A stretch of 63,230 nucleotides of DNA, the filler included, from a bacterium (GTDB lineage Bacteria > UBP18 > UBA7526), in the NCBI GenBank assembly GCA_030615855.1. It is 6 parts of 6 records of this genome, joined end to end, with 100 filler letters (N's around TTAATTAATTAA, not from the genome) between each part and the next. Parts side by side here need not be neighbours in the genome. Positions count along the whole stretch, not along the records: positions 43,053 to 47,755 come from JAUWYL010000041.1; 5 more parts are not named here. One strand, written 5' to 3'. The notes below the pieces were generated by a model. It searched no databases, was not told the origin of the DNA, and saw only the letters and a program-made list of their open reading frames with translations. Positions 5,601 to 63,230 of the stretch are shown here, one piece after another (positions within the stretch are counted from its first letter, which is position 1; each line of letters begins with the position of its first letter). A program made the translations under genes and the position numbers.

Positions 5601-8600
5601 GGTTCTGCCTGAACCTCCCCTGCTTCCCCCTAAGCATATCGGATAGAGACTTTAAGGGTCTTCCCCCAGCACCCTTAACCACCCTTCCCCTCCTTCCATT
5701 ATCAAATAAAGCATCCATTGCTTCCTGGAGCATCCTCTTCTCATTCCTCACGATGACCTCTGGGGCGCGAAGCTCCATGAGCTTCTTTAACCTATTATTC
5801 CTATTAATTACCCGGCGATAGAGGTCGTTCAGGTCGCTTGTGGCGAACCTTCCCCCGTCCAAAGGAACTAAGGGTCTTAGGTCAGGCGGGATGACGGGAA
5901 GGACTTCTAGGATCATCCACTCCGGCCTATTCCCAGAGGCCAGGAAGGACTCCACGATCTTCAATCTCTTACTTAGCTTCATCCTCTTCTGGGCAGAGGT
6001 AGTCCTTCTCATGTTATTCTTGATCTCCTTGGCAAGAGCAGCCAAATCCACCTCCTCCAATAGTTTCCTGATGGCCTCTCCCCCTATCCCGGCCTTAAAG
6101 GAGGTACCATACCTCTCTCTATAATCCTGGTACTCTTCCTCAGTCAAGAGCCTCTTCTTGGCCAGCTTGGTCATGCCGGGATCGGTGATGATGTACTCCT
6201 CAAAGTAGAGGACTTTCTCTAACTGTCTCTGGGATAACCCGAGAAGAGCTCCCATTCTACTGGGTATCCCCTTGAAGTACCAGATGTGGGAAAGAGGAGT
6301 AGCCAACTCGATGTGGCCCATCCTAACCCGGCGCACAGAAGACTTGGTAACCTCTACCCCGCAGCGATCACATACTATCCCCTCATGCTTCATCCTTTTA
6401 TACTTTCCACAGTAGCACTCATAGTCCTTGGTGGGACCGAAAATCCTTTCGCAGAATAGACCATCCCTCTCCGATCTGAAGGTACGATAATTTATGGTCT
6501 CTGGCTTCTTGACCTCTCCCTGGCTCCAGAATTGGATGACCTCTGGCGAGGCGATCTTTACTCTTATGGCTTCATACCCACCTGCCCGTCCCTGTCCGTC
6601 CGACAGGCGGGCGGCAGACGGAGGCGAGGTAGGGGTTGCTGGCGTCCTCTTCTTCCTCTCAAGTTCGACATTCAAGGTCAGTCCCATCAACTCCTTGACC
6701 AGGACATTGAAGGACTCGGGAAGGGTAGGGGGAAGGGTGTCTTCTCCCTTGACAATGGCCTCGTATATCTTCGTTCTCCCAACGATGTCATCGCTCTTTA
6801 CGGTGAGCATCTCCTGCAGGGTATAAGCGGCCCCATAGGCCTCCAGGGCCCAGACCTCCATCTCCCCAAACCTCTGTCCTCCAAACTGGGCCTTCCCTCC
6901 CAGGGGTTGCTGGGTAACCAGGGAGTAAGGACCTATTGCCCGGGCATGGATCTTATCCGCCACTAGGTGGGCGAGCTTCATCATATAGATATAGCCCACC
7001 GTGACCTCTTGATCGAAGGGCTCACCCGTCCTCCCATCATATAATATGGTCTTCCCGTTCTCTGGAAGGCCGGCCTTCTTCAAGAGCTTTTTGATCTCCC
7101 CCTCTCTTGCTCCATCGAAGACTGGAGAGATGAACTTCAGCCCCAAGGCTTGAGCAGCCCAGCCCAGGTGGGTCTCCAGTATCTGGCCCACATTCATCCT
7201 TGAGGGAACCCCAAGGGGGTTTAAGAGTATCTCCACTGGGGTGCCATCTGCCAGATAGGGCATATCCTCCTCAGGCAGGATCTTGGCGATCACTCCTTTA
7301 TTCCCATGCCTTCCTGCGATCTTATCTCCCACAGAGAGTTTCCTCTTCTTGGCTACGAAGACCTTGACCATCTTCAAGATCCCTGAGGGGAGTTCATCTC
7401 CCTTCTTGGCCCTCTCCAGGTCCCGGTCTCTTCTTCTCTTGATGGCCTCTATCTTCTCCTTCAGGATCTCTTCTATCCTCTCAATCTCCTCTTTTCTCTT
7501 CAGTCTCTTAGTCTCTCTCTTGACCCTCTCAGAGAGTCTTTTTATCTCTCTCTCCGCCTCTCTCTTTATCCCCTCTAACTCCACAGATTGGGCCTCTCTC
7601 TCCTTCTTAGTCTTGGGCCTCTTCTTCTTAGAGAAGATCTTGACATCGACCACTATCCCCTCATCCCCAGGGGGGAAGCGAAGGGAGGCATCCCTTACTT
7701 CTGCTGCCTTCTCTCCAAATATGGCGCGCAGTAGCTTCTCCTCTGCAGAGAGCTCGGTCTCTCCTTTAGGGGTGACCTTACCGATCAAGATATCCCCTGG
7801 TTTGACAGCGGCCCCGATACGCACGATCCCCTCCTCATCCAGATTGACCAGGGCCTCCTCTGCTACGTTGGGGATGTCTTTAGTAATCTCCTCCTTCCCC
7901 AATTTAGTATCCCGGGCTAAGAGCTCATACTCCTCTATATGGATAGAGGTGAACTTATCATCCTTCACCACCCTTTCACTTATTAGGATAGCATCTTCAA
8001 AGTTATATCCCTCCCAGGGCATGAAGGCCACTAAGACATTTCTTCCCAAAGCGAGTTCCCCCTTGTCTACTGCCGGACCATCAGCAATGATCTCTCCCCT
8101 CTTCACTCTCTGGCCTCTCTTCACGATCGGCCTCTGATGGATGCAGGTATCCTGATTGGACCTGATGAACTTATCCAGGAGATAGGTATCATGGGTCTCG
8201 AGGCTGAAGGAAGGCTCCTCTATTCGGATGATGATCTTATCTGCGTCTACCTCTTCTACTACTCCCTCCCTTTTAGCCAAAACGACCGCCCCGGAGTCCT
8301 GGGCTACCTTCTCCTCTATCCCGGTTCTCACCAAAGGGGGCTCAGGAACCAGGAGGGGAACTGCCTGGCGCTGCATATTGGAACCCATAAGAGCCCGATT
8401 GGCATCATCGTGTTCCAGAAAAGGAACCAAGGCAGCCGAGACAGAGACCAACTGTTTAGGCGAGATGTCCATGTAATCGATCTCGCTTGGGGTAACCTTA
8501 GGGAAGTCACCCCTCCTCCTTGCCGAGACTCTTTCCTCCAAGAAACATCTCTTACTGTCGAGTCGGGCATTGGCCTGAGCGATAGTGTACTCGTCCTCCT

Positions 8601-14399: not shown

Positions 14400-14524
14400 N
14401 NNNNNNNNNNNNNNNNNNNNNNNNNNNNNNNNNNNNNNNNNNNTTAATTAATTAANNNNNNNNNNNNNNNNNNNNNNNNNNNNNNNNNNNNNNNNNNNNT
14501 ACCTACCTAAAAGGAGGGAGAGCG

Positions 14525-35639: not shown

Positions 35640-35894
35640 TCAATAAAAATTGTTTGGNNNNNNNNNNNNNNNNNNNNNNNNNNNNNNNNNNNNNNNNNNN
35701 NTTAATTAATTAANNNNNNNNNNNNNNNNNNNNNNNNNNNNNNNNNNNNNNNNNNNNTATCAGAATGAGAATTCAGAATATCAGATTTCAGATTCAATCT
35801 GGCCCTCTGATAACTGACCCTCTCCATCTGGTGCTCTGGTAATCTGGTATTCTAATTACACTAGTCGCGCAACCCTTCAACGTATGCCGTAAGA

Positions 35895-36123: not shown

Positions 36124-37272
36124 ATGAAGATTAGTTGTTTTCAGGGAGATTTGATAAGGGGAATTCAGACCGTAGGAAGTGCTGTGGCGGCAAGAGCCAC
36201 TCTTCCCATCCTAACCAATATTCTATTGGAGGCAAAAAAGGAGAAGATAGAATTATCGGCCACTGACTTAGAGATTGGGATCAAGTGTAGCGTCCCGGCC
36301 CAGGTCAAGAAGGAGGGTGCCATTACCATCTCGGCCAAGAGGTTCTCTGATATCGTAAGGGAGTTGCCTGAAGGGCCAGTAGAGATGGAGACAGAGGATA
36401 GCCAGATGAAGATATCCTCTTCTGGAATATTCTTCAAAGTCCTGGGTCTTCCCGCAGAGGAGTTTCCCACCTTACCAAAGGTGGAGAGCGAAAATCGGTT
36501 CTCTTTGGACTCTCAGCTTTTAAGAGGGATGGTCCAGAAGACTATCTTCGCCAATTCCCGGGATGAAACAAGGTATATCCTGAACGGTAGTTACTTAGAG
36601 ATGGAGAAGGATAGGATAATCATGACCGCCACTGATGGTCACCGGTTGGCAACCATAAGCCACAGAATAGAGAAGGGGCCAAAGAAGAAGATAGGAGCCA
36701 TCATTCCCACAAAGGCATTGAATGAATTGAATAGACTATTGGAGGAGCCAAAGAAGGTTGAGGCCACAATTGGTGAGAATCAGATCTCCTTCTCTTTAGA
36801 CCTGCCCGCCGAAGCCCCTGCCTCGTCGGCAGACAGGTCGGCGCAGGCAGGTGGAATTATACTGAGTTCCAAACTCATCGAGGGTCAATTCCCGGACTAT
36901 AAGCAACTCATTCCAAAGAAGAGCGCCAAGAGACTTTCCATAAATAGGGAGAAGTTATTGAAAGGGGTGAGGAGGGCAGCCTTACTTGCCGATGCCCGAA
37001 CCGGAGCCGTGGAATTACTAGCCTATTCCAATAAACTCATCATAAGGTCCCAGACCCCCCAGGTGGGTGAGGCCCGGGAGGAGATGGACATCGATTATTC
37101 TGGAGAGGAGATCAGGACGGCATATAATGCCCGATATATTCTGGATATTTTACGAAATATATCCTCAGAAGAGGTCACCTTAGAATTGAATGAACCTTTG
37201 AGTCCAGGAGTAATCAGACCAGTAAGTGAAGAGGATTATCTCTGCGTCATCATGCCCATGAGAATCACTTAA
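36124..37272 (+). CDS. dnaN: DNA polymerase III beta clamp
   Basis: LSATDLE, DETRYILNG, ATDGHRL, LIEGQFPDY, IMPMR. Confidence 0.97.
   Translation: MKISCFQGDLIRGIQTVGSAVAARATLPILTNILLEAKKEKIELSATDLEIGIKCSVPAQVKKEGAITISAKRFSDIVRELPEGPVEMETEDSQMKISSSGIFFKVLGLPAEEFPTLPKVESENRFSLDSQLLRGMVQKTIFANSRDETRYILNGSYLEMEKDRIIMTATDGHRLATISHRIEKGPKKKIGAIIPTKALNELNRLLEEPKKVEATIGENQISFSLDLPAEAPASSADRSAQAGGIILSSKLIEGQFPDYKQLIPKKSAKRLSINREKLLKGVRRAALLADARTGAVELLAYSNKLIIRSQTPQVGEAREEMDIDYSGEEIRTAYNARYILDILRNISSEEVTLELNEPLSPGVIRPVSEEDYLCVIMPMRIT
36801..36851. repeat. In-frame 51-nt nested palindrome in dnaN
   Basis: cctgcccgccgaagcc[cctgcctcgtcggcagacagg]tcggcgcaggcagg; outer 30-mer resembles 46169-46198. Confidence 0.9.
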
Positions 37273-38073: not shown

Positions 38074-40563
<2,490 letters not shown>

Positions 40564-42952: not shown

Positions 42953-43052
42953 NNNNNNNNNNNNNNNNNNNNNNNNNNNNNNNNNNNNNNNNNNNNTTAA
43001 TTAATTAANNNNNNNNNNNNNNNNNNNNNNNNNNNNNNNNNNNNNNNNNNNN

Positions 43053-43978
43053 GCCTGAACGATCTTTTCTTTGGGGAATGGCCGGAAGAACCTTGGTTTC
43101 AATAGACCAACTTTCTTACCTTGTGCCCGCAACTCATCCACCACCGCTTTAGTTGTTCCCGCGGTAGAGCTTAAGGCCACGATAGCCACTTCAGCATCAT
43201 CCAGCTTATAGGTTTCAATAAAGTCGTATTCAATGCCAAAATGCCTTTTAAATTCGGCGAAGACTTCCGGGATGGCTTTCAAAGAATTCTTGATGGCCTC
43301 TGACTGCTGGCGCTTATGCTCAAAATAATAATCCTGCAAATCCAGTGGCCCATAGGTAACCGGGTTGTCCACATCCAAAAGTGAATGGCGGATCTTGTAC
43401 TCACCGATAAAATCCTTCACCTGTTTATCGTCGTAAACCTTTACCCCTTCCACAGCGTGAGAAGTAATGAAGCCGTCCTGACAGACCATTACCGGAAGCA
43501 AAATATCTTTATGCTCGGCAATCCTTACCGCCATAATGATATTTTCGTAAACCTCTTGGTTATTCTCGCAGTAAATCTGAAGCCACCCGGAATCTCTTGC
43601 CCCCATTGAGTCTGAATGGTCGCAGTGGATATTTATTGGCGCAGAAAGCGCCCGATTGACCACGGGCATCACAATGGGAAGCCTGGTGGAGGCAGCAATA
43701 TAGACTATCTCCCACATAAGAGCTAAACCATTCGCTGAGGTAGCGGTCATGGTGCGCGCGCCAGATGCGGCAGCACCCACACAGGCGCTCATAGCACTGT
43801 GTTCCGACTCCACGGGAATCATCTCGGTCTGCACGCGGCCATCAGCCACAAACTGGGCAAAGGTCATTACAATCTCTGTCTGGGGGGTAATGGGATAGGC
43901 GGCCAGTACATCCGGTTCAATCTGGCGCATGGCCTCCGCTGCTGCCTGGTCCCCCATTAACGCTATTACTTTACTCAT
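43053..43978 (-). CDS. porA: Pyruvate/2-oxoacid:ferredoxin oxidoreductase alpha (cut by contig end)
   Basis: AYPITPQT, ESEHSAMS, TATSANGL, DGFITSH. Confidence 0.9.
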
Positions 43979-43999
43979 CTCACTCTCCTAATTCGGGTC

Positions 44000-44275
44000 T
44001 TATTCTTTCTCCATCTTGATACATTTCACCGGACAGACTGCTGCACAAATTCCATCACCCTTACAATGATCATAATCAAAACCCACCATTTTTTTATCTT
44101 TTACCAGAATAGAAGAATCCGGGCAATATATCCAGCATAATAAGCAATGGGTGCATTTCTTCTCATCGCGTACCGGCTTAAAAGTGCGCCAATCGCCGGT
44201 CTTATATTCTGCGGCACTGCCCGCCTTATCAATCACTCCGCCAATAGGAATCTCTTTCCAGCCTTTTTCTCTCAT
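44000..44275 (-). CDS. porD: Oxidoreductase delta subunit (ferredoxin-like)
   Basis: KTGDWRTFKP, CTHCLLCWIYCP, CKGDGICAAVCP. Confidence 0.9.
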   Translation of the reverse strand: MREKGWKEIPIGGVIDKAGSAAEYKTGDWRTFKPVRDEKKCTHCLLCWIYCPDSSILVKDKKMVGFDYDHCKGDGICAAVCPVKCIKMEKE

Positions 44276-44832
44276 TCTATTTTGACCTCCTCATAAGCGC
44301 GCTTGATGCCGGCAATATTTGCCTTAGTCTTCTCTTCACCAATCTTCTTTAAGAATTTTGCTTTGATTTTTTCATATAAGGCGTCCAATTCTACTAAAGG
44401 AGCAATTTTTAAAAGCGCTCCTAACATGGGCATATTGGGCATGGGCCGGCCCAGCGTATCCAACGAAATTTTCGTAGCGTCCACTGTGGCCACTTTGCCC
44501 TCTTTGAAACCGGTCTTCTGGCGCACCGAATCTACCGACTCACTAGTATTTACCAGAAGCATTCCTTTATCGCTTAATCCCTCCACCACTGCAGGGCTTA
44601 AAAGTGTGGGATCAATTACTACAACATATCCCGGGTTGGTTACGCCACAATGTAGGTCAATGGGCTGTGTACTAATTCTGTTATAAGTCCTAATGGGCGC
44701 GCCGGCGCGCTCCGGGCCATATTCCGGGAAGGCCTGAATATATTTTCCAGTATCGAGAGTTGCTTCCGCTAAAAATTGGGCAGCGGTCTTCGCCCCCTGC
44801 CCCCCTCTTCCATGCCACCTTATCTCAATCAT
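44272..44832 (-). CDS. porC: Oxidoreductase gamma subunit
   Basis: EIRWHGRGGQG, FPEYGPERAGAP, NMPMLGA. Confidence 0.9.
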   Translation of the reverse strand: MIEIRWHGRGGQGAKTAAQFLAEATLDTGKYIQAFPEYGPERAGAPIRTYNRISTQPIDLHCGVTNPGYVVVIDPTLLSPAVVEGLSDKGMLLVNTSESVDSVRQKTGFKEGKVATVDATKISLDTLGRPMPNMPMLGALLKIAPLVELDALYEKIKAKFLKKIGEEKTKANIAGIKRAYEEVKIE

Positions 44833-44852
44833 CTTTCGCTCCTTTCAGTCGC

Positions 44853-44922
44853 AGTAACCAGTAACCAGTTTACAGTTTCTCTCTTCTGCTGGTTACTGTT
44901 CGCTGGTTACTGTAAACCTCTA
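44853..44922. repeat. Empty allele of the AGTAACC periodic inverted element
   Basis: Arms identical to 2342-2367 and 2569-2602 with a 10-nt loop. Confidence 0.9.
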
Positions 44923-44938
44923 ATCTTGGATCACTGTT

Positions 44939-45601
44939 TTAGAACTCTTTTCTTCCCTCTAAGGACTTGGCCAGGGTTTCTTCATCCACATACTCTATAC
45001 TCCCACCTACGGGAATCCCATGGGCAATTCTGGTTACTTTAATCCCTGAGGGCTTAATCATTTTTGCTAAGTACATGGCGGTCATCTCCCCATTGGTATT
45101 GGGATTTGTGGCCAGAATGACCTCAGATACCTTCCGGGCCAGAGGCCCTTCCCGCCGGGGCAGAGCCCCTCTTGGGGCGGAGCCCAGGCCGGAGGCCTTC
45201 TCCTTCTTCAGTCTTTCCACTAATTCCTTTATCTTCAGTTCATCCGGACCTATTCCCTCCAAAGGAGAGAGAGCACCCAAGAGTACATGATAAATCCCAT
45301 TAAAGCCTCTTGACTTCTCAAAGGCTAAGACATCCTTCGGCTCCTCAACGACACAGATTATAGAGTGGTCCCTCTGATTATTGCTACAGATCTCACAGGG
45401 ATCCTCTTCTGTGATGTTGTTACATATTGAGCAGTAGGTGATCCTCTCCTTCAGATCTAAGATAGCCTGGGATAAGGCCTTGGCCTCCTCCTTTGAGGAC
45501 CTCAGGATATAGAAGGCGATCCTCTGGGCTGTCTTCGGCCCTATAGAAGGCATCTTGCTAAGTTCCTCAATTAATCTATTCAATGTCTTTGTATGGTACA
45601 T
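44939..45601 (-). CDS. recR: Recombination mediator RecR
   Basis: PSIGPKTAQR, CSICNN..EDPCEIC, YHVLLG, EVILATNP..NGE, TRIAHGIPVG. Confidence 0.97.
   Translation of the reverse strand: MYHTKTLNRLIEELSKMPSIGPKTAQRIAFYILRSSKEEAKALSQAILDLKERITYCSICNNITEEDPCEICSNNQRDHSIICVVEEPKDVLAFEKSRGFNGIYHVLLGALSPLEGIGPDELKIKELVERLKKEKASGLGSAPRGALPRREGPLARKVSEVILATNPNTNGEMTAMYLAKMIKPSGIKVTRIAHGIPVGGSIEYVDEETLAKSLEGRKEF
45130..45195. repeat. In-frame 66-nt nested insert in recR
   Basis: ccttccgggccagaggccctt[33 nt]ccaggccggagg; outer 33-mer identical to 46112-46144. Confidence 0.92.
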
Positions 45602-45662
45602 TATAGCACCTTCGGTGCAGTTATGCGTTATGAGTTATGCGTTATGAGTTTAAAATTCACAA

Positions 45663-47378
45663 TTACTTCTTATTTTCCCCTGGAGGGATTACTTTTCCGG
45701 TTGGTGGTTTGATCTCTAAGATCTCTCCGCCGAAGATATCTAAGGCCTCTTTTACTACTGGCTCCTCCTCTATGAACTCCTCCTTGCTCATCACCATTCC
45801 CTTCTGGGCCACTGCTTCTGGTCTTTCTCTTGGAGTATTTGTCAGGCGACATTCAATGGTAAAGTCCTTACCAAAGATTCTATTCAGTGCCTTCTGGATG
45901 AGTTCCCTATTCTCCTTCTCCTCAATCTGCTCCTTGTGGAACTTAAAGTCTTCATTAAAGCCGATGGTCAGAAGGTTATCCTTCAAGGCGATGGGCTCTC
46001 CTTCCATTAAAAAGGCGCCAGTTACGGCGCTATCCTTCTTTATCTCTCTTATCACCTCACCCCAGGCATCCTTTATCCCCCCCAACTCAAGATAGGAGGC
46101 CTCATCCTTCACCTTCCGGGCCAGAGGCCCTTCCAGGCCGGAGGCCTTTTCAGCCGGAGCCCCTTCTTCCTGCCCACCGAAGCCTCGGCGTAGGTGGGTG
46201 GGTGCCTCCTCTATGGGGAACTCCTCCTGAGCAGGCATTATCCCTAACCTCTCTTCTATTGACTCTATCTTCCTTAATATCTCCTCCACTGAAATAGTGG
46301 GTTCTAATCTGGTTAGTTTTACGACCGCCATCTCTAAGATTAATCTCACCTTTTCGCTCCTCTTCATCTCCTCCCGCGCCTGAGATACAATCTCAATCAT
46401 TCGCAGGAGTCTATCCTGGTCAAACCTCTCTCTGAATTCTTTCAACCTCTCCCTCAAATCCTTGGGAAGGTCGACCACCTCCTCATTGATCTTAAGCATC
46501 AATAGATTTCTGAAATGCTCTAATAAATCAGTGGCAAAGTGGCGTAGATCATACCCTTGATCTATGATCTGATTTATGATATTTAGTATTCCCTTGGTAT
46601 TGTTTTCACCAATTGCTTTTGTTAACTCAAAGAAGGTTCCCTGGGGGACTATGCCCAAAATGGCCTGAAGGTCGCCCTGGGTAACCTTCTTTCCTCCTAA
46701 AGAGATGAGCTGATCCAGGACGCTTATCCCATCCCTCATGCTTCCTTCACTCGCCCGGGCGATCTGGAAGGTGATATCCTCGCTTATCTCCAACTTTTCA
46801 TCCTTGGCAATCTCAGCCAATTTCTTAGCGATATCCTTACTCTTTATCCTTCTGAAATCGAATCGTTGACAGCGGGATAGGATGGTCAAGGGAAGTTTAA
46901 AAGGTGCGGTGGTAGCCAAGATGAATATCACATGGGGAGGGGGCTCCTCCAAGGTTTTTAATAGGGCATTGAAGGCCTCGGTGGTGAGCATATGGACCTC
47001 ATCGATGATGTAGACCTTATACTTCGAACTCGCGGGAGCGAACTTCACCTTCTCCCTCAAATCCCTCACCTCATCTATTCCTCTATTAGAGGCCCCGTCG
47101 ATCTCTAAGACGTCGAGGCTACTCCCAATGGCGATCTCCTTGCAGTTGGTGCACTTGTTGCAGGGGACGGGAGTGGGTCCCTTCTCACAGTTCAAGGCTT
47201 TAGCCAATAACCTTGCGGTAGTCGTCTTTCCTATTCCCCTTGGCCCGGTGAAGAGATAGGCATGGGAGACCCGATTCTGCTTTATGGCTCCTGCTAAGGT
47301 CTTAGTGATATGCTCCTGACCCACTACCTCCTCAAAGGTCTTGGGCCTCCACTTCCTGGCTAAGACGATATAGACCAT
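45663..47378 (-). CDS. dnaX: DNA polymerase III gamma/tau
   Basis: LARKWRP, GPRGIGKTT, IDEVHML, TILSRCQRF, GSMRD. Confidence 0.97.
   Translation of the reverse strand: MVYIVLARKWRPKTFEEVVGQEHITKTLAGAIKQNRVSHAYLFTGPRGIGKTTTARLLAKALNCEKGPTPVPCNKCTNCKEIAIGSSLDVLEIDGASNRGIDEVRDLREKVKFAPASSKYKVYIIDEVHMLTTEAFNALLKTLEEPPPHVIFILATTAPFKLPLTILSRCQRFDFRRIKSKDIAKKLAEIAKDEKLEISEDITFQIARASEGSMRDGISVLDQLISLGGKKVTQGDLQAILGIVPQGTFFELTKAIGENNTKGILNIINQIIDQGYDLRHFATDLLEHFRNLLMLKINEEVVDLPKDLRERLKEFRERFDQDRLLRMIEIVSQAREEMKRSEKVRLILEMAVVKLTRLEPTISVEEILRKIESIEERLGIMPAQEEFPIEEAPTHLRRGFGGQEEGAPAEKASGLEGPLARKVKDEASYLELGGIKDAWGEVIREIKKDSAVTGAFLMEGEPIALKDNLLTIGFNEDFKFHKEQIEEKENRELIQKALNRIFGKDFTIECRLTNTPRERPEAVAQKGMVMSKEEFIEEEPVVKEALDIFGGEILEIKPPTGKVIPPGENKK
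46112..46198. repeat. Two in-frame palindromic inserts in dnaX (33 nt at 46112-46144, 30 nt at 46169-46198)
   Basis: Encode ASGLEGPLARK and THLRRGFGGQ; they are the empty forms of the recR and dnaN inserts. Confidence 0.9.
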
Positions 47379-47495
47379 CTGCTCACTCCGTTCGCAATGA
47401 TATCAGTGATAAATTATAGATTACAGTGATTGGTGATTTATTCGCGCGTATTCGCGTTTTTTATTTTTGCTCCGTGCCATTCGCGATAATTCGCG

Positions 47496-47755
47496 TCACT
47501 GTCCCTTGAGTTCCTCTAATCGTTGGAAAACCCGGGGCAGCAACTCCATCGCTACTCGAGATTCATCCATCTTATTCTCATAATCAACGTACTCATCTTG
47601 GGTTATCCCATACTTCTTAAGAACTTTCTCAAATTCCCTAGCTGATGCTGCACCGGCCTCAATACCCATTTCGCCTGCTTCCACCTTGGCCGCATACTTT
47701 TCCATTATAAGACTCTCTTGTGCTTTCAACTCTACCCAGAGGTCATCATTCATCC
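47496..47755 (-). CDS. Hypothetical protein (3' part)
   Basis: Open to the contig edge; acidic helical sequence. Confidence 0.55.
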
Positions 47756-47855
47756 NNNNNNNNNNNNNNNNNNNNNNNNNNNNNNNNNNNNNNNNNNNNT
47801 TAATTAATTAANNNNNNNNNNNNNNNNNNNNNNNNNNNNNNNNNNNNNNNNNNNN

Positions 47856-58648: not shown

Positions 58649-58749
58649 ANNNNNNNNNNNNNNNNNNNNNNNNNNNNNNNNNNNNNNNNNNNNTTAATTA
58701 ATTAANNNNNNNNNNNNNNNNNNNNNNNNNNNNNNNNNNNNNNNNNNNN

Positions 58750-58890
58750 AAAGAGACGAACTCAACTCCGTATTCTTCAGCCCTCTCCCTGGAAGGGTGA
58801 AAAGTCCAGGCAATTACCTTCATGCCAATCCCCTTTGCCAGTCTCGCCAGATGACCCCCGATCGCTCCCAAACCCACTATCCCTAAAGTT
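58750..58890. repeat. 141-nt contig-terminal direct repeat
   Basis: Identical to 63090-63230. Confidence 0.97.
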
Positions 58891-62713: not shown

Positions 62714-63230
62714 CTATTTAACCATATTAATGGGGCTTCCTTTTAGGAAATTGATAACATTGTCTACTGCCATCTGGGCTCCTCTCTCGATAGTTTCCGG
62801 GGTCATTCCTGCTGAGTGCGGAGTCAGGACCACATTTTTCAGCTTAAGAAGAGGATCATCGGGTGGGATGGGCTCTTCATGAAAAGTATCCAGGCCAGCC
62901 CCGGCGATCTTGCCATAAGTTAAGGCATCTATTAGAGCTTGTTTGTTAACTATAGCTCCTCTGGCCGTATTCACCAGGATAGCGGTAGATTTCATCAGCT
63001 CGAACTGTCTCTTCCCCACAAGATCAGTGGTCTTATCAGAGAGTCTTAAGTTCACTGAAATGACATCGGCCTGCTTGAATAGATCATGGAAAGAGACGAA
63101 CTCAACTCCGTATTCTTCAGCCCTCTCCCTGGAAGGGTGAAAAGTCCAGGCAATTACCTTCATGCCAATCCCCTTTGCCAGTCTCGCCAGATGACCCCCG
63201 ATCGCTCCCAAACCCACTATCCCTAAAGTT
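62714..63230 (-). CDS. D-2-hydroxyacid dehydrogenase, 3' part
   Basis: LVNTARG, GAGLDTF..EP, LTPHSAG; joined gene is 957 nt (318 aa). Confidence 0.9.
   Translation of the reverse strand, partial: TLGIVGLGAIGGHLARLAKGIGMKVIAWTFHPSRERAEEYGVEFVSFHDLFKQADVISVNLRLSDKTTDLVGKRQFELMKSTAILVNTARGAIVNKQALIDALTYGKIAGAGLDTFHEEPIPPDDPLLKLKNVVLTPHSAGMTPETIERGAQMAVDNVINFLKGSPINMVK

What the first reader, a model, noticed from the sequence alone, without database searches (positions are those of the whole stretch)
45130..46144. recR insert equals an exact dnaX 33-mer with another 33-mer nested inside
Seen: ccttccgggccagaggcccttccaggccggagg in dnaX. The same sequence in recR is split by cccgccggggcagagcccctcttggggcggagc. 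Both sit in an a|cctt context (EK|V on the sense strand), so two unrelated proteins share KASGL..EGPLARKV. Identity suggests recent movement and the shared flank suggests a target preference.
Basis: seen in the sequence. Interest (0 to 1): 0.75.

Follow-up and report, generated by a model that had tools for sequence, protein, structure and literature searches.

The report
Tiny mobile hairpin inserts in genes
The matching 33-base stretches in dnaX and recR are copies of a tiny, GC-rich, hairpin-forming mobile DNA element that is read through as 11 extra amino acids, still comes and goes in the natural population, and belongs to a known kind of gene-invading palindromic repeat.

Summary
dnaX holds the 33-mer at 46112-46144. 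recR holds the same 33-mer at 45130-45195, split by a second, related 33-mer; removing 33 nt restores the dnaX copy exactly.

Both are real insertions. Close relatives and most RecR orthologues lack them. Contigs from the source-type marine-sediment runs skip exactly 66 nt (recR) or 33 nt (dnaX) between near-identical flanks.

The element is one of a dispersed family:
- at least 12 loci in two of the four related genomes searched;
- 12 copies in a Levybacteria genome;
- near-identical copies in several other phyla and two viral contigs.

Most copies lie in long ORFs, in both orientations and at least three frames.

Six filled/empty comparisons place the insertion 3' of an AAGG-like tetramer. 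The element's own end is also ARGG. A fixed target-site duplication fails in two of the six.

Nesting in the second loop recurs elsewhere, and the 66-nt composite occurs at a second locus, so it may move as a unit.

No mobilising enzyme was found next to any copy.

This is a new variant of intragenic REP / Rickettsia-palindromic-element-type DNA. This scan has noted similar mini-elements before in other genomes.

The parts
46112..46144 (.). Single family-1 33-nt element in the dnaX linker (DnaX residues 412-422, ASGLEGPLARK), between Pfam domain III (232-370) and DnaX_C (430-513).
   Evidence: Absent from G006 and other relatives. Contigs in X2 and X4 skip exactly these 33 nt, with a 4-nt ambiguity CCTT.
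45130..45195 (.). 66-nt composite in recR (RecR residues 136-157): the same 33-mer as in dnaX, interrupted by a second family member.
   Evidence: Empty site GAGAAGG|TATCT in G001, G006 and G007. Contigs in X1, X2 and X4 skip exactly 66 nt, with a 5-nt ambiguity CCTTC. A strain about 4% divergent carries the full 66 nt (record 15).
45151..45183 (.). Inner family-1 copy (G-C variant of the covarying stem), sitting in the second loop of the outer copy. It is equally well placed at 45152-45184 or 45153-45185.
   Evidence: It aligns position for position with the outer copy, with compensatory changes in three segments.
44939..45601 (-). recR, intact, 220 aa. The insert lies between helix 120-133 and the Toprim strand 160-164.
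   Evidence: The alignment to 3VDP leaves query residues 133-156 against 2 residues of the solved chain. The AlphaFold2 model has pLDDT below 50 and no secondary structure at 135-155.
45663..47378 (-). dnaX (tau/gamma), intact, 571 aa.
46169..46201 (.). Copy of a second GC-rich hairpin insert family (family 2) in the same dnaX linker (about residues 393-403). It is present in the window, G006 and G008 and absent in G001. G001 and G008 carry another copy of it at a third linker site.
   Evidence: A near-identical hairpin lies between a tRNA gene and a small GIY-YIG ORF in a Woesebacteria genome (L190).

Best explanation
The two stretches are copies of a non-autonomous, REP-like miniature mobile element of about 33 nt. 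It is GC-rich and built of three short segments (GGGNC / GN'CCC / GGGNC) that can pair in alternative hairpins, framed by CCYTCC...GGAGN. The length is a multiple of three, and the window's two variants have no stop codon in any of the six frames. A copy that lands in a tolerant part of a gene is therefore translated as 11 extra residues (RecR: a disordered loop before a Toprim strand; DnaX: the interdomain linker). Shown: insertion relative to orthologues; presence/absence in one natural population; dispersed copies in several phyla; use of both orientations and several frames; recurrent nesting in the element's own second loop. Inferred: the element moves as single-stranded hairpin DNA, mobilised in trans by a structure-specific enzyme not yet identified (a Y1/RAYT-type transposase or an Ssn-type GIY-YIG nuclease). 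It inserts 3' of an AAGG-like tetramer that resembles its own ARGG 3' end, without a true target duplication, and it can be lost precisely. The 66-nt nested form arose by insertion of one copy into another and may now spread as a unit.
For: Insertion:
- RecR orthologues are 198-199 aa (empty, up to 96% identical), 209 aa (one 11-residue insert) or 220 aa (window).
- DNA empty sites are seen in G001, G006 and G007.

Polymorphism:
- Exact 66-nt and 33-nt skips occur in contigs of the same study's runs; in the two X2 contigs listed in the pieces table the flanks carry 0-1 differences.

Family:
- GGGNCAGAGNCCC gave 18 hits against 3 control hits in four related genomes. 13 of the hits, in 12 loci, carry the family ends.
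- 10 of those 12 loci lie in open frames of 212 aa or more.
- Three further filled/empty pairs each differ by exactly 33 nt.
- Levybacteria G045 has 12 copies against 0 control hits, 10 of them in open frames of 232 aa or more.
- A whole-collection scan found 17 stretches in 9 genomes labelled as Patescibacteria lineages, Deltaproteobacteria, Desulfobacteraceae, Syntrophaceae, Gammaproteobacteria and an unclassified bacterium.
- 2 viral contigs also hold it.

Structure:
- Stem pair 14-20 is CG in 17, GC in 6, UA in 4, GU in 2 and other in 4 of 33 copies. 0 of 500 shuffles reached the covariation score.
- The third segment matches the first in 31 of 33 copies (with 8 rows re-read by eye).

Target:
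- The left flanks on the sense strand are AAGG, AAGG, ARGG, AAGG, AAAG and CTGG.

Nesting:
- Nesting at the same loop is seen in L177, L173 and L170.
Against: - No gene for a mobilising enzyme was found beside any family-1 copy.
- Y1_Tnp (PF01797) was found in 0 of 4 related genomes, all of them incomplete.
- The Y1-like genes of four Patescibacteria hosts are flanked by other hairpins.
- None of the 20 small GIY-YIG cassettes viewed carries a family-1 copy.
- The window's dnaX copy folds no better than shuffled sequence as DNA (z = 0.07 and -0.23). The inner copy and the composite reach only z = -1.2 to -1.7.
- Covariation rests on one variable stem pair. The copies are related, so cell counts are not independent events.
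- The direction of change in the population (new insertion or precise loss) is not resolved. A strain about 4% divergent also carries the 66-mer. A single origin of insert-bearing RecR alleles is not rejected (3 changes on the tree, AU p = 0.058).
- The target rule rests on six events.
Confidence: 0.6

Rival explanations
1. An ordinary cut-and-paste MITE: a 29-nt element with short terminal inverted repeats (CCTCCGG / CCGGAGG), moved by a DDE transposase that makes a 4-nt AAGG target-site duplication.
For: recR and dnaX show perfect 5- and 4-nt direct repeats at the junctions (CCTTC, CCTT). 29 + 4 = 33. Four of the 12 canonical copies compared (10 from relatives plus the window's recR and dnaX copies) have identical tetramers on both sides (my reading).
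Against: The L147 event has only 1 nt of junction ambiguity and the nested event only 2. In L135 the two tetramers differ (AAGG / AGGG). The element's own end is ARGG in nearly all copies whatever the flank. No autonomous partner with these ends was seen.
Confidence: 0.12
2. No dedicated enzyme: the copies spread by replication template switching or microhomology-mediated copying between hairpin-prone GC-rich sequences, and are lost by slippage between the short direct repeats.
For: There are 1-5 nt of microhomology at every junction. Exact losses between direct repeats that flank a hairpin are what slippage produces. No enzyme was found.
Against: Near-identical 33-mers in distant phyla and in viral contigs, together with a patchy distribution (3 credible hosts among 401 Patescibacteria genomes sampled), fit a transferable element better than spontaneous copying. 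The three-segment covariation implies selection on structure.
Confidence: 0.15
3. A selected functional module: a peptide motif or an mRNA hairpin recruited by the host for regulation of replication and repair genes.
For: Both hosts here are DNA replication/repair genes. Intragenic REPs were reported to lie often in such genes (abstract and passages of PMC3733652). Eight of the 12 antisense-oriented copies in this lineage, the window's three included, share one frame (..EG.L.R[RK]).
Against: Copies occur in at least three frames and both orientations, in unrelated genes, at N- and C-termini and between genes. Close relatives do without them. The RecR insert is modelled as disordered.
Confidence: 0.05
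4. Local duplication or gene conversion between the neighbouring dnaX and recR genes, or an assembly artefact.
For: The two copies are 33 of 33 identical and 1 kb apart on a short MAG contig.
Against: There are many further copies elsewhere. Independent per-run assemblies show both filled and empty alleles. Other flanks join the same element (loose ends and record 15).
Confidence: 0.02

Closest known systems
Intragenic REPs (GTAG- and CGTC-tagged palindromic repeats; Di Nocera et al. 2013, PMC3733652; abstract and passages read)
   Same: Both are 20-40-bp GC-rich hairpin repeats. Some copies lie inside genes as singles or grouped units encoding some 10-30 residues. Many of those genes are replication and repair genes. 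Both are thought to be miniature mobile DNA.
   Different: There is no conserved GTAG or CGTC tag. Here most copies in this lineage are intragenic rather than extragenic. Grouping is by nesting in the same orientation, not by head-to-head dimers. No RAYT flanked by these repeats was found. That paper's Additional file 3, which lists intragenic REPs, could not be opened, so I cannot exclude that a related family is listed there.
Rickettsia palindromic elements (RPE; Ogata et al. 2000/2002, as summarised in PMC10969869, passages read)
   Same: Both are palindromic selfish DNA inserted in frame into unrelated, apparently functional genes and translated as surface additions.
   Different: RPEs are about 100-150 bp, encode a conserved peptide in one frame, and are described from Rickettsia. 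This element is 33 nt, is read in several frames and both orientations, and occurs in several phyla.
REPIN/RAYT and IS200/IS605 peel-and-paste transposition (as discussed in PMC11893778; the mechanism details are from my own knowledge)
   Same: Both involve hairpin-bearing single-strand substrates, insertion 3' of a short specific tetramer without target duplication, seamless loss, and an element end that resembles the target.
   Different: No Y1 transposase is tied to these repeats: 0 of 4 relatives have one, and the Y1-like genes viewed in four other hosts carry other hairpins. A strand bias could not be tested.
Ssn GIY-YIG single-strand nucleases with NTS/SRM hairpin repeats (Chenal et al. 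2025, PMC11893778; abstract, sections 6, 7 and 10 and passages read)
   Same: Both involve dispersed hairpin repeats in many copies across phyla. Small single-domain GIY-YIG genes, flanked by their own hairpins, are present in all four relatives. The family-2 hairpin of the dnaX linker lies next to such a gene in a Woesebacteria genome.
   Different: Family 1 was never seen beside a GIY-YIG gene (0 of 20 cassettes viewed). Its sequence is unlike the NTS motif quoted in that paper. Ssn is shown there to cut ssDNA and to modulate transformation, not to transpose repeats.
Palindromic repeats with coding potential in Methanocaldococcus jannaschii (Suyama et al. 2005; recalled, not read; only citing papers were listed)
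   Same: They are short palindromic repeats found inside coding regions.
   Different: They are archaeal, and no sequence relation was tested.

Membership tests
REP superfamilies (GTAG / CGTC tagged) | 20-40-bp GC-rich unit able to form a stem-loop | tested here: met
   The unit is 33-34 nt. The stem GGGNC/GN'CCC is paired in 97.6% of cells across 33 copies, with compensatory changes at one pair. Thermodynamic stability is above shuffles only for the canonical copy (z = -3.1), not for the window copies.
REP superfamilies (GTAG / CGTC tagged) | Conserved GTAG or CGTC tetranucleotide at one end | tested here: not met
   3 of 33 copies hold any such tetramer within the 42-nt stretch, and none at a conserved terminal position.
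REP superfamilies (GTAG / CGTC tagged) | A RAYT (Y1 transposase) gene flanked by the same repeats in the genome | tested here: not met
   PF01797 was found in 0 of 4 relatives, all incomplete MAGs. It was found in 5 of 5 other host genomes. The four Patescibacteria genes viewed are flanked by other hairpins, and no family-1 motif lies in those loci.
Rickettsia palindromic elements | In-frame insertion into unrelated, intact genes | tested here: met
   recR and dnaX. 10 of 12 loci in relatives and 10 of 12 in G045 lie in long open frames. Five filled/empty differences are multiples of 3: 33, 33, 33, 33 and 66 nt.
Rickettsia palindromic elements | About 100-150 bp encoding one conserved peptide | tested here: not met
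   The element is 33 nt. At least three reading frames and both orientations are used.
MITE (TIR plus target-site duplication) | Fixed-length target-site duplication | tested here: not met
   Junction ambiguity is 5, 4, 2, 1 and 2 nt in five events, and could not be scored in the sixth (L141) because of substitutions. A strict 4-nt duplication fails for L147 and for the nested event.
MITE (TIR plus target-site duplication) | Autonomous IS with the same termini | not tested
No such unit was seen in the loci read.
IS200/IS605-type single-strand elements | Insertion 3' of a specific tetramer, without duplication, with an element end resembling it | tested here: inconclusive
   6 of 6 events lie 3' of AAGG, AAGG, ARGG, AAGG, AAAG and CTGG, and the element ends in ARGG. 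There are too few events for a logo.
Ssn / SRM system | Repeats flank a single-domain GIY-YIG (ssnA-type) gene | tested here: not met
   0 of 20 small GIY-YIG loci viewed carry family 1. Family 2 is adjacent to one such gene (L190).
Ssn / SRM system | Site-specific cleavage of single-stranded DNA near the repeat | not testable with these tools
   This needs purified enzyme and oligonucleotides.

The most novel reading that the evidence does not exclude
A cross-phylum family of 33-nt elements may be the smallest translated mobile DNA known. It would be active today in marine-sediment populations and able to target the loop of its own copies, so building 66-nt composites that then spread as units. 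It would be driven by an enzyme class not yet linked to transposition (for example Ssn-type GIY-YIG single-strand nucleases), with phages as carriers between phyla.
Probability: 0.2. Interest if true: 0.75.

Novelty: new variant of a known kind. Interest (0 to 1): 0.5.

Why it matters
It shows essential replication and repair proteins being remodelled in present-day populations by an 11-codon selfish insert. The filled and empty alleles sit side by side, which is a rare direct view of how palindromic repeats enter proteins. Near-identical copies occur in Patescibacteria, in lineages labelled Deltaproteobacteria, Desulfobacteraceae and Syntrophaceae, in this unnamed lineage and in viral contigs. 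This makes the family a handle on two open questions: which enzyme moves REP-like repeats that lack a RAYT, and how such short DNA crosses phyla. In practice, such inserts inflate apparent protein divergence and break short-read assemblies at their edges.

Tried and rejected
- Whole genome of the window: none is held.
I used the genome search through locus L016 instead.
- Rfam: no family at the motif in 17 loci. In the window there is only a chance-level snoU82P match, 15 bits against a threshold of 42.
- Cultured phage and plasmid collections: no match to the canonical 42-nt stretch.
- Earlier scan notes by sequence or by place: nothing.
- Sampling 401 Patescibacteria genomes: 7 had hits against 6 with control hits. 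Only G045, G277 and G047 are credible hosts, so the family is patchy, not general, in that phylum.
- Stability as evidence of structure: rejected for the window copies.
- Monophyly test of insert-bearing RecR alleles: not decisive (AU p = 0.058). The group was defined by the insert but tested after I had seen the tree.
- A 4-nt target-site-duplication model: considered and set aside (see rivals).
- My regex mis-read the third segment in 8 rows with TCAA or TACG loops. I re-read those rows by eye.
Full report
**The observation**

The window is not one stretch of chromosome. It is six MAG contigs joined by N/TTAATTAATTAA spacers. recR and dnaX lie together on the 4.7-kb contig 43053-47755.

- The 33-mer quoted for dnaX occurs once, exactly, at 46112-46144.
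- The second 33-mer occurs once at 45151-45183.
- Neither appeared in 100 shuffles, even with 3 mismatches allowed.
- Deleting 33 nt after base 21, 22 or 23 of 45130-45195 restores the dnaX 33-mer 33 of 33.
- Both genes are intact on the minus strand. They read KASGLGSAPRGALPRREGPLARKV in RecR and KASGLEGPLARKV in DnaX.
- The inserts are 76-79% GC in a 48% GC contig.

**They are insertions**

Protein evidence:
- The best RecR matches fall into three length classes at this one site.
- The 198-199 aa class has no insert. The closest of these, P0005, is 96% identical in the alignment.
- The 209 aa class (P0002-P0004) has one 11-residue insert, KASGLERPLARKV.
- The window's protein has 220 aa.

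Structural position:
- Against the solved RecR 3VDP, query residues 133-156 face only two residues of the chain.
- An AlphaFold2 model puts residues 135-155 at pLDDT below 50, without secondary structure. They lie between helix 120-133 and Toprim strand 160-164.
- In DnaX the insert (residues 412-422) lies between domain III and the C-terminal domain.

DNA evidence:
- One hit of a motif scan, L016, led to a related genome, G001. From it I reached three more relatives, G006 to G008.
- G001, G006 and G007 have the empty recR site GAGAAGG|TATCT.
- G006 lacks exactly the 33 nt in dnaX.

**They are polymorphic now**

Contigs of four runs of one marine-sediment study were laid on the region.
- In X1, X2 and X4 a contig joins 45129 to 45196, skipping exactly 66 nt. 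Five letters (CCTTC) fit on either side of the joint.
- In X2 and X4 a contig joins 46111 to 46145, skipping exactly 33 nt. Four letters (CCTT) fit on either side.
- The two X2 contigs have 0-1 differences in 107-314 nt of flank.
- Another contig (X3, record 15), 26 differences from the window over 628 nt, runs through the full 66-mer without a gap.
- The filled allele therefore exists in two strains about 4% apart, and empty alleles exist in the near-identical background.
- This fits precise loss, repeated gain, or exchange between strains. I cannot tell which.
- On a RecR tree the insert-bearing alleles fall in three places, but a single origin is not rejected (AU p = 0.058).

**A dispersed family**

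In the four related genomes:
- The core GGGNCAGAGNCCC gave 18 hits against 3 for the reversed control.
- 13 hits in 12 loci carry the family's ends. All 12 loci are in G001 and G006.
- 10 of the 12 loci lie in open frames of 212-1003 aa. Nine are antisense to the gene, as in the window.
- At least three frames are read, for example ..PEGSLPRRE, GLRPRGVSDPEG and PLRGRGPSGVEP.
- Three of these copies could be compared with relatives, and each is an exact 33-nt insertion.

Across collections:
- A scan of one genome per species found 17 stretches in 9 genomes. They are labelled Levybacteria, Woesebacteria, another Patescibacteria member, two Deltaproteobacteria, a Desulfobacteraceae MAG, Syntrophaceae, Gammaproteobacteria and the unclassified relative.
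- Two viral contigs also carry it.
- The Levybacteria genome has 12 copies per 1.0 Mb against 0 control hits. Ten lie in open frames of 232-516 aa, mostly in the opposite orientation to that seen in the window's lineage.
- The family is patchy. Of 401 sampled genomes of that phylum, 7 had a hit and 6 had a control hit, and only three are credible hosts.
- The loose ends show the element joined to several other flanks in the same metagenomes.

**Anatomy**

- In the + strand orientation the unit reads CCYTCC-GGGxC-AGA-GyCCC-loop-GGGzC-GGAGN.
- Across 33 copies the x:y pair is C:G in 17, G:C in 6, U:A in 4, G:U in 2 and unpaired in 4. 0 of 500 shuffles reached the covariation score, and slid controls are lower on cells paired.
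- z equals x in 31 of 33 copies (with 8 rows re-read by eye). The middle segment can therefore pair with either neighbour.
- The other four stem pairs never vary, and the copies are related. The support for structure is real but narrow.
- As bare DNA the canonical copy is more stable than shuffles (z = -3.1). The window's copies are not (z = 0.07 to -1.7).
- The window's two variants have no stop codon in any of six frames. Intergenic copies with a TCAA loop, and some T:A variants, do have one.

**Target and ends**

- On the gene-sense strand the element reads N-CTCCG...CCCGG-ARGG.
- With that phase fixed, six events have these left flanks: AAGG (recR), AAGG (dnaX), ARGG (L135), AAGG (L141), AAAG (L147) and CTGG (the nested event).
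- The direct repeats at recR and dnaX are thus the target tetramer plus the element's own end.
- A strict 4-nt duplication fails for L147 (1-nt ambiguity) and for the nested event (2 nt).
- This layout parallels IS200/IS605-type single-strand transposition, where the target lies 5' of the element and resembles the element's 3' end. I state that rule from my own knowledge. With six events the parallel is a lead, not a demonstration.

**Nesting**

- The inner copy sits in the second loop of the outer one, immediately before that copy's internal AAGG.
- The same arrangement is seen in a Levybacteria ORF (L177). Other inserts occupy the same loop in L173 and L170.
- A 70-nt match to the window's whole composite, with 4 differences, lies at another locus in X2 and X3 (records 10 and 16).
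- Nesting is therefore recurrent, and the 66-mer may itself be a propagating form.

**What moves it**

This was not found.
- Y1 transposase (PF01797) was found in 0 of 4 relatives, all incomplete.
- It was found in 5 of 5 other host genomes. The four Patescibacteria genes I read are bracketed by different hairpins.
- Small GIY-YIG genes are present in all four relatives and in the four Patescibacteria hosts. Several sit beside tRNA genes, and several have hairpins of their own in their flanks.
- None of the 20 GIY-YIG cassettes I read has a family-1 copy.

**Companion families**

- A second insert family is present or absent at two further sites of the same dnaX linker. A near-identical hairpin lies between a tRNA gene and a GIY-YIG ORF in a Woesebacteria genome (L190). 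This echoes the published Ssn/SRM pairing (PMC11893778).
- A third, 36-nt family is inserted in frame at 40080-40115.
- This lineage thus carries several such families.

**Comparison with what is known**

- In-frame palindromic inserts are known from Rickettsia (summarised in PMC10969869).
- REPs inside genes, often replication and repair genes, as singles or grouped units, were described by Di Nocera et al. (PMC3733652).
- This family lacks their GTAG/CGTC tags. It has no RAYT partner in view, is mostly intragenic here, nests rather than dimerises, and is shared across phyla.
- My five literature searches listed no description of it. Supplementary tables were closed.
- Earlier notes of this scan describe similar mini-elements in Patescibacteria and Omnitrophota, and in-frame repeats in this same genome. 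Those notes gave me the GIY-YIG and Ssn leads. For family 1 my tests did not bear that link out.

**Verdict**

This is a real, currently polymorphic, translated mini-element of a known general kind, with unusual features and an unknown driver.

Noticed in passing
window 46169-46201; L100, L105, L124 (dnaX linker of G001, G006, G008); L190: A second 30-33-nt GC-rich hairpin insert family comes and goes at two other sites of the same dnaX linker. A near-identical copy lies between a tRNA gene and a small GIY-YIG ORF in a Woesebacteria genome.
   Followed up: partly
window 40080-40115: A third family: a 36-nt double hairpin inserted in frame in a lysine/glutamate-rich ORF. It is present in the window and G001 and absent in G007 and G008, with dispersed look-alikes at other loci of G001, G006 and G008.
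   Followed up: partly
window 6581-6640, 36801-36848, 38091-38125: Further GC-rich islands begin with the same CCTGCCCG seed as family 2. I did not check whether they are insertions.
   Followed up: no
window 14400-14499, 35658-35757, 42953-43052, 47756-47855, 58650-58749: N runs around TTAATTAATTAA show that the window is a concatenation of six MAG contigs. Neighbourhood across these joints means nothing.
   Followed up: yes
window 58750-58890 and 63090-63230: The last contig has identical 141-nt ends that lie inside one 2-hydroxyacid-dehydrogenase-like gene (its N-terminal half at one end, its C-terminal half at the other). As assembled it closes into a 4340-bp circle. It carries ordinary metabolic genes, so this is more likely an assembly effect than a plasmid.
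   Followed up: partly
L159, L162, L157 (G008:C31, G006:C77, G006:C23); L153, L154, L156: Small (about 70-126 aa open frame) GIY-YIG genes sit beside tRNA genes with flanking hairpins. In L159 and L162 a partial tRNA 5' piece lies upstream; in L159 and L157 a complete tRNA follows. One cassette lies about 0.9 kb upstream of dnaX in G006.
   Followed up: partly
L002, L006, L007, L011, L012, L017, L170 (Desulfobacteraceae MAG G005): Here the family-1 core is embedded in a longer conserved intergenic repeat (conserved flanks of at least 25-30 nt on each side). Five of its seven copies lie within about 110 nt of a contig end.
   Followed up: partly
window 44840-44935, 45610-45650, 47400-47480: The intergenic spacers around recR and dnaX are filled with short 7-11-nt word repeats (for example CAGTAACCAG, TTATGCGTTATGAG, ATTCGCG). 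Earlier notes on this genome describe the same thing.
   Followed up: no
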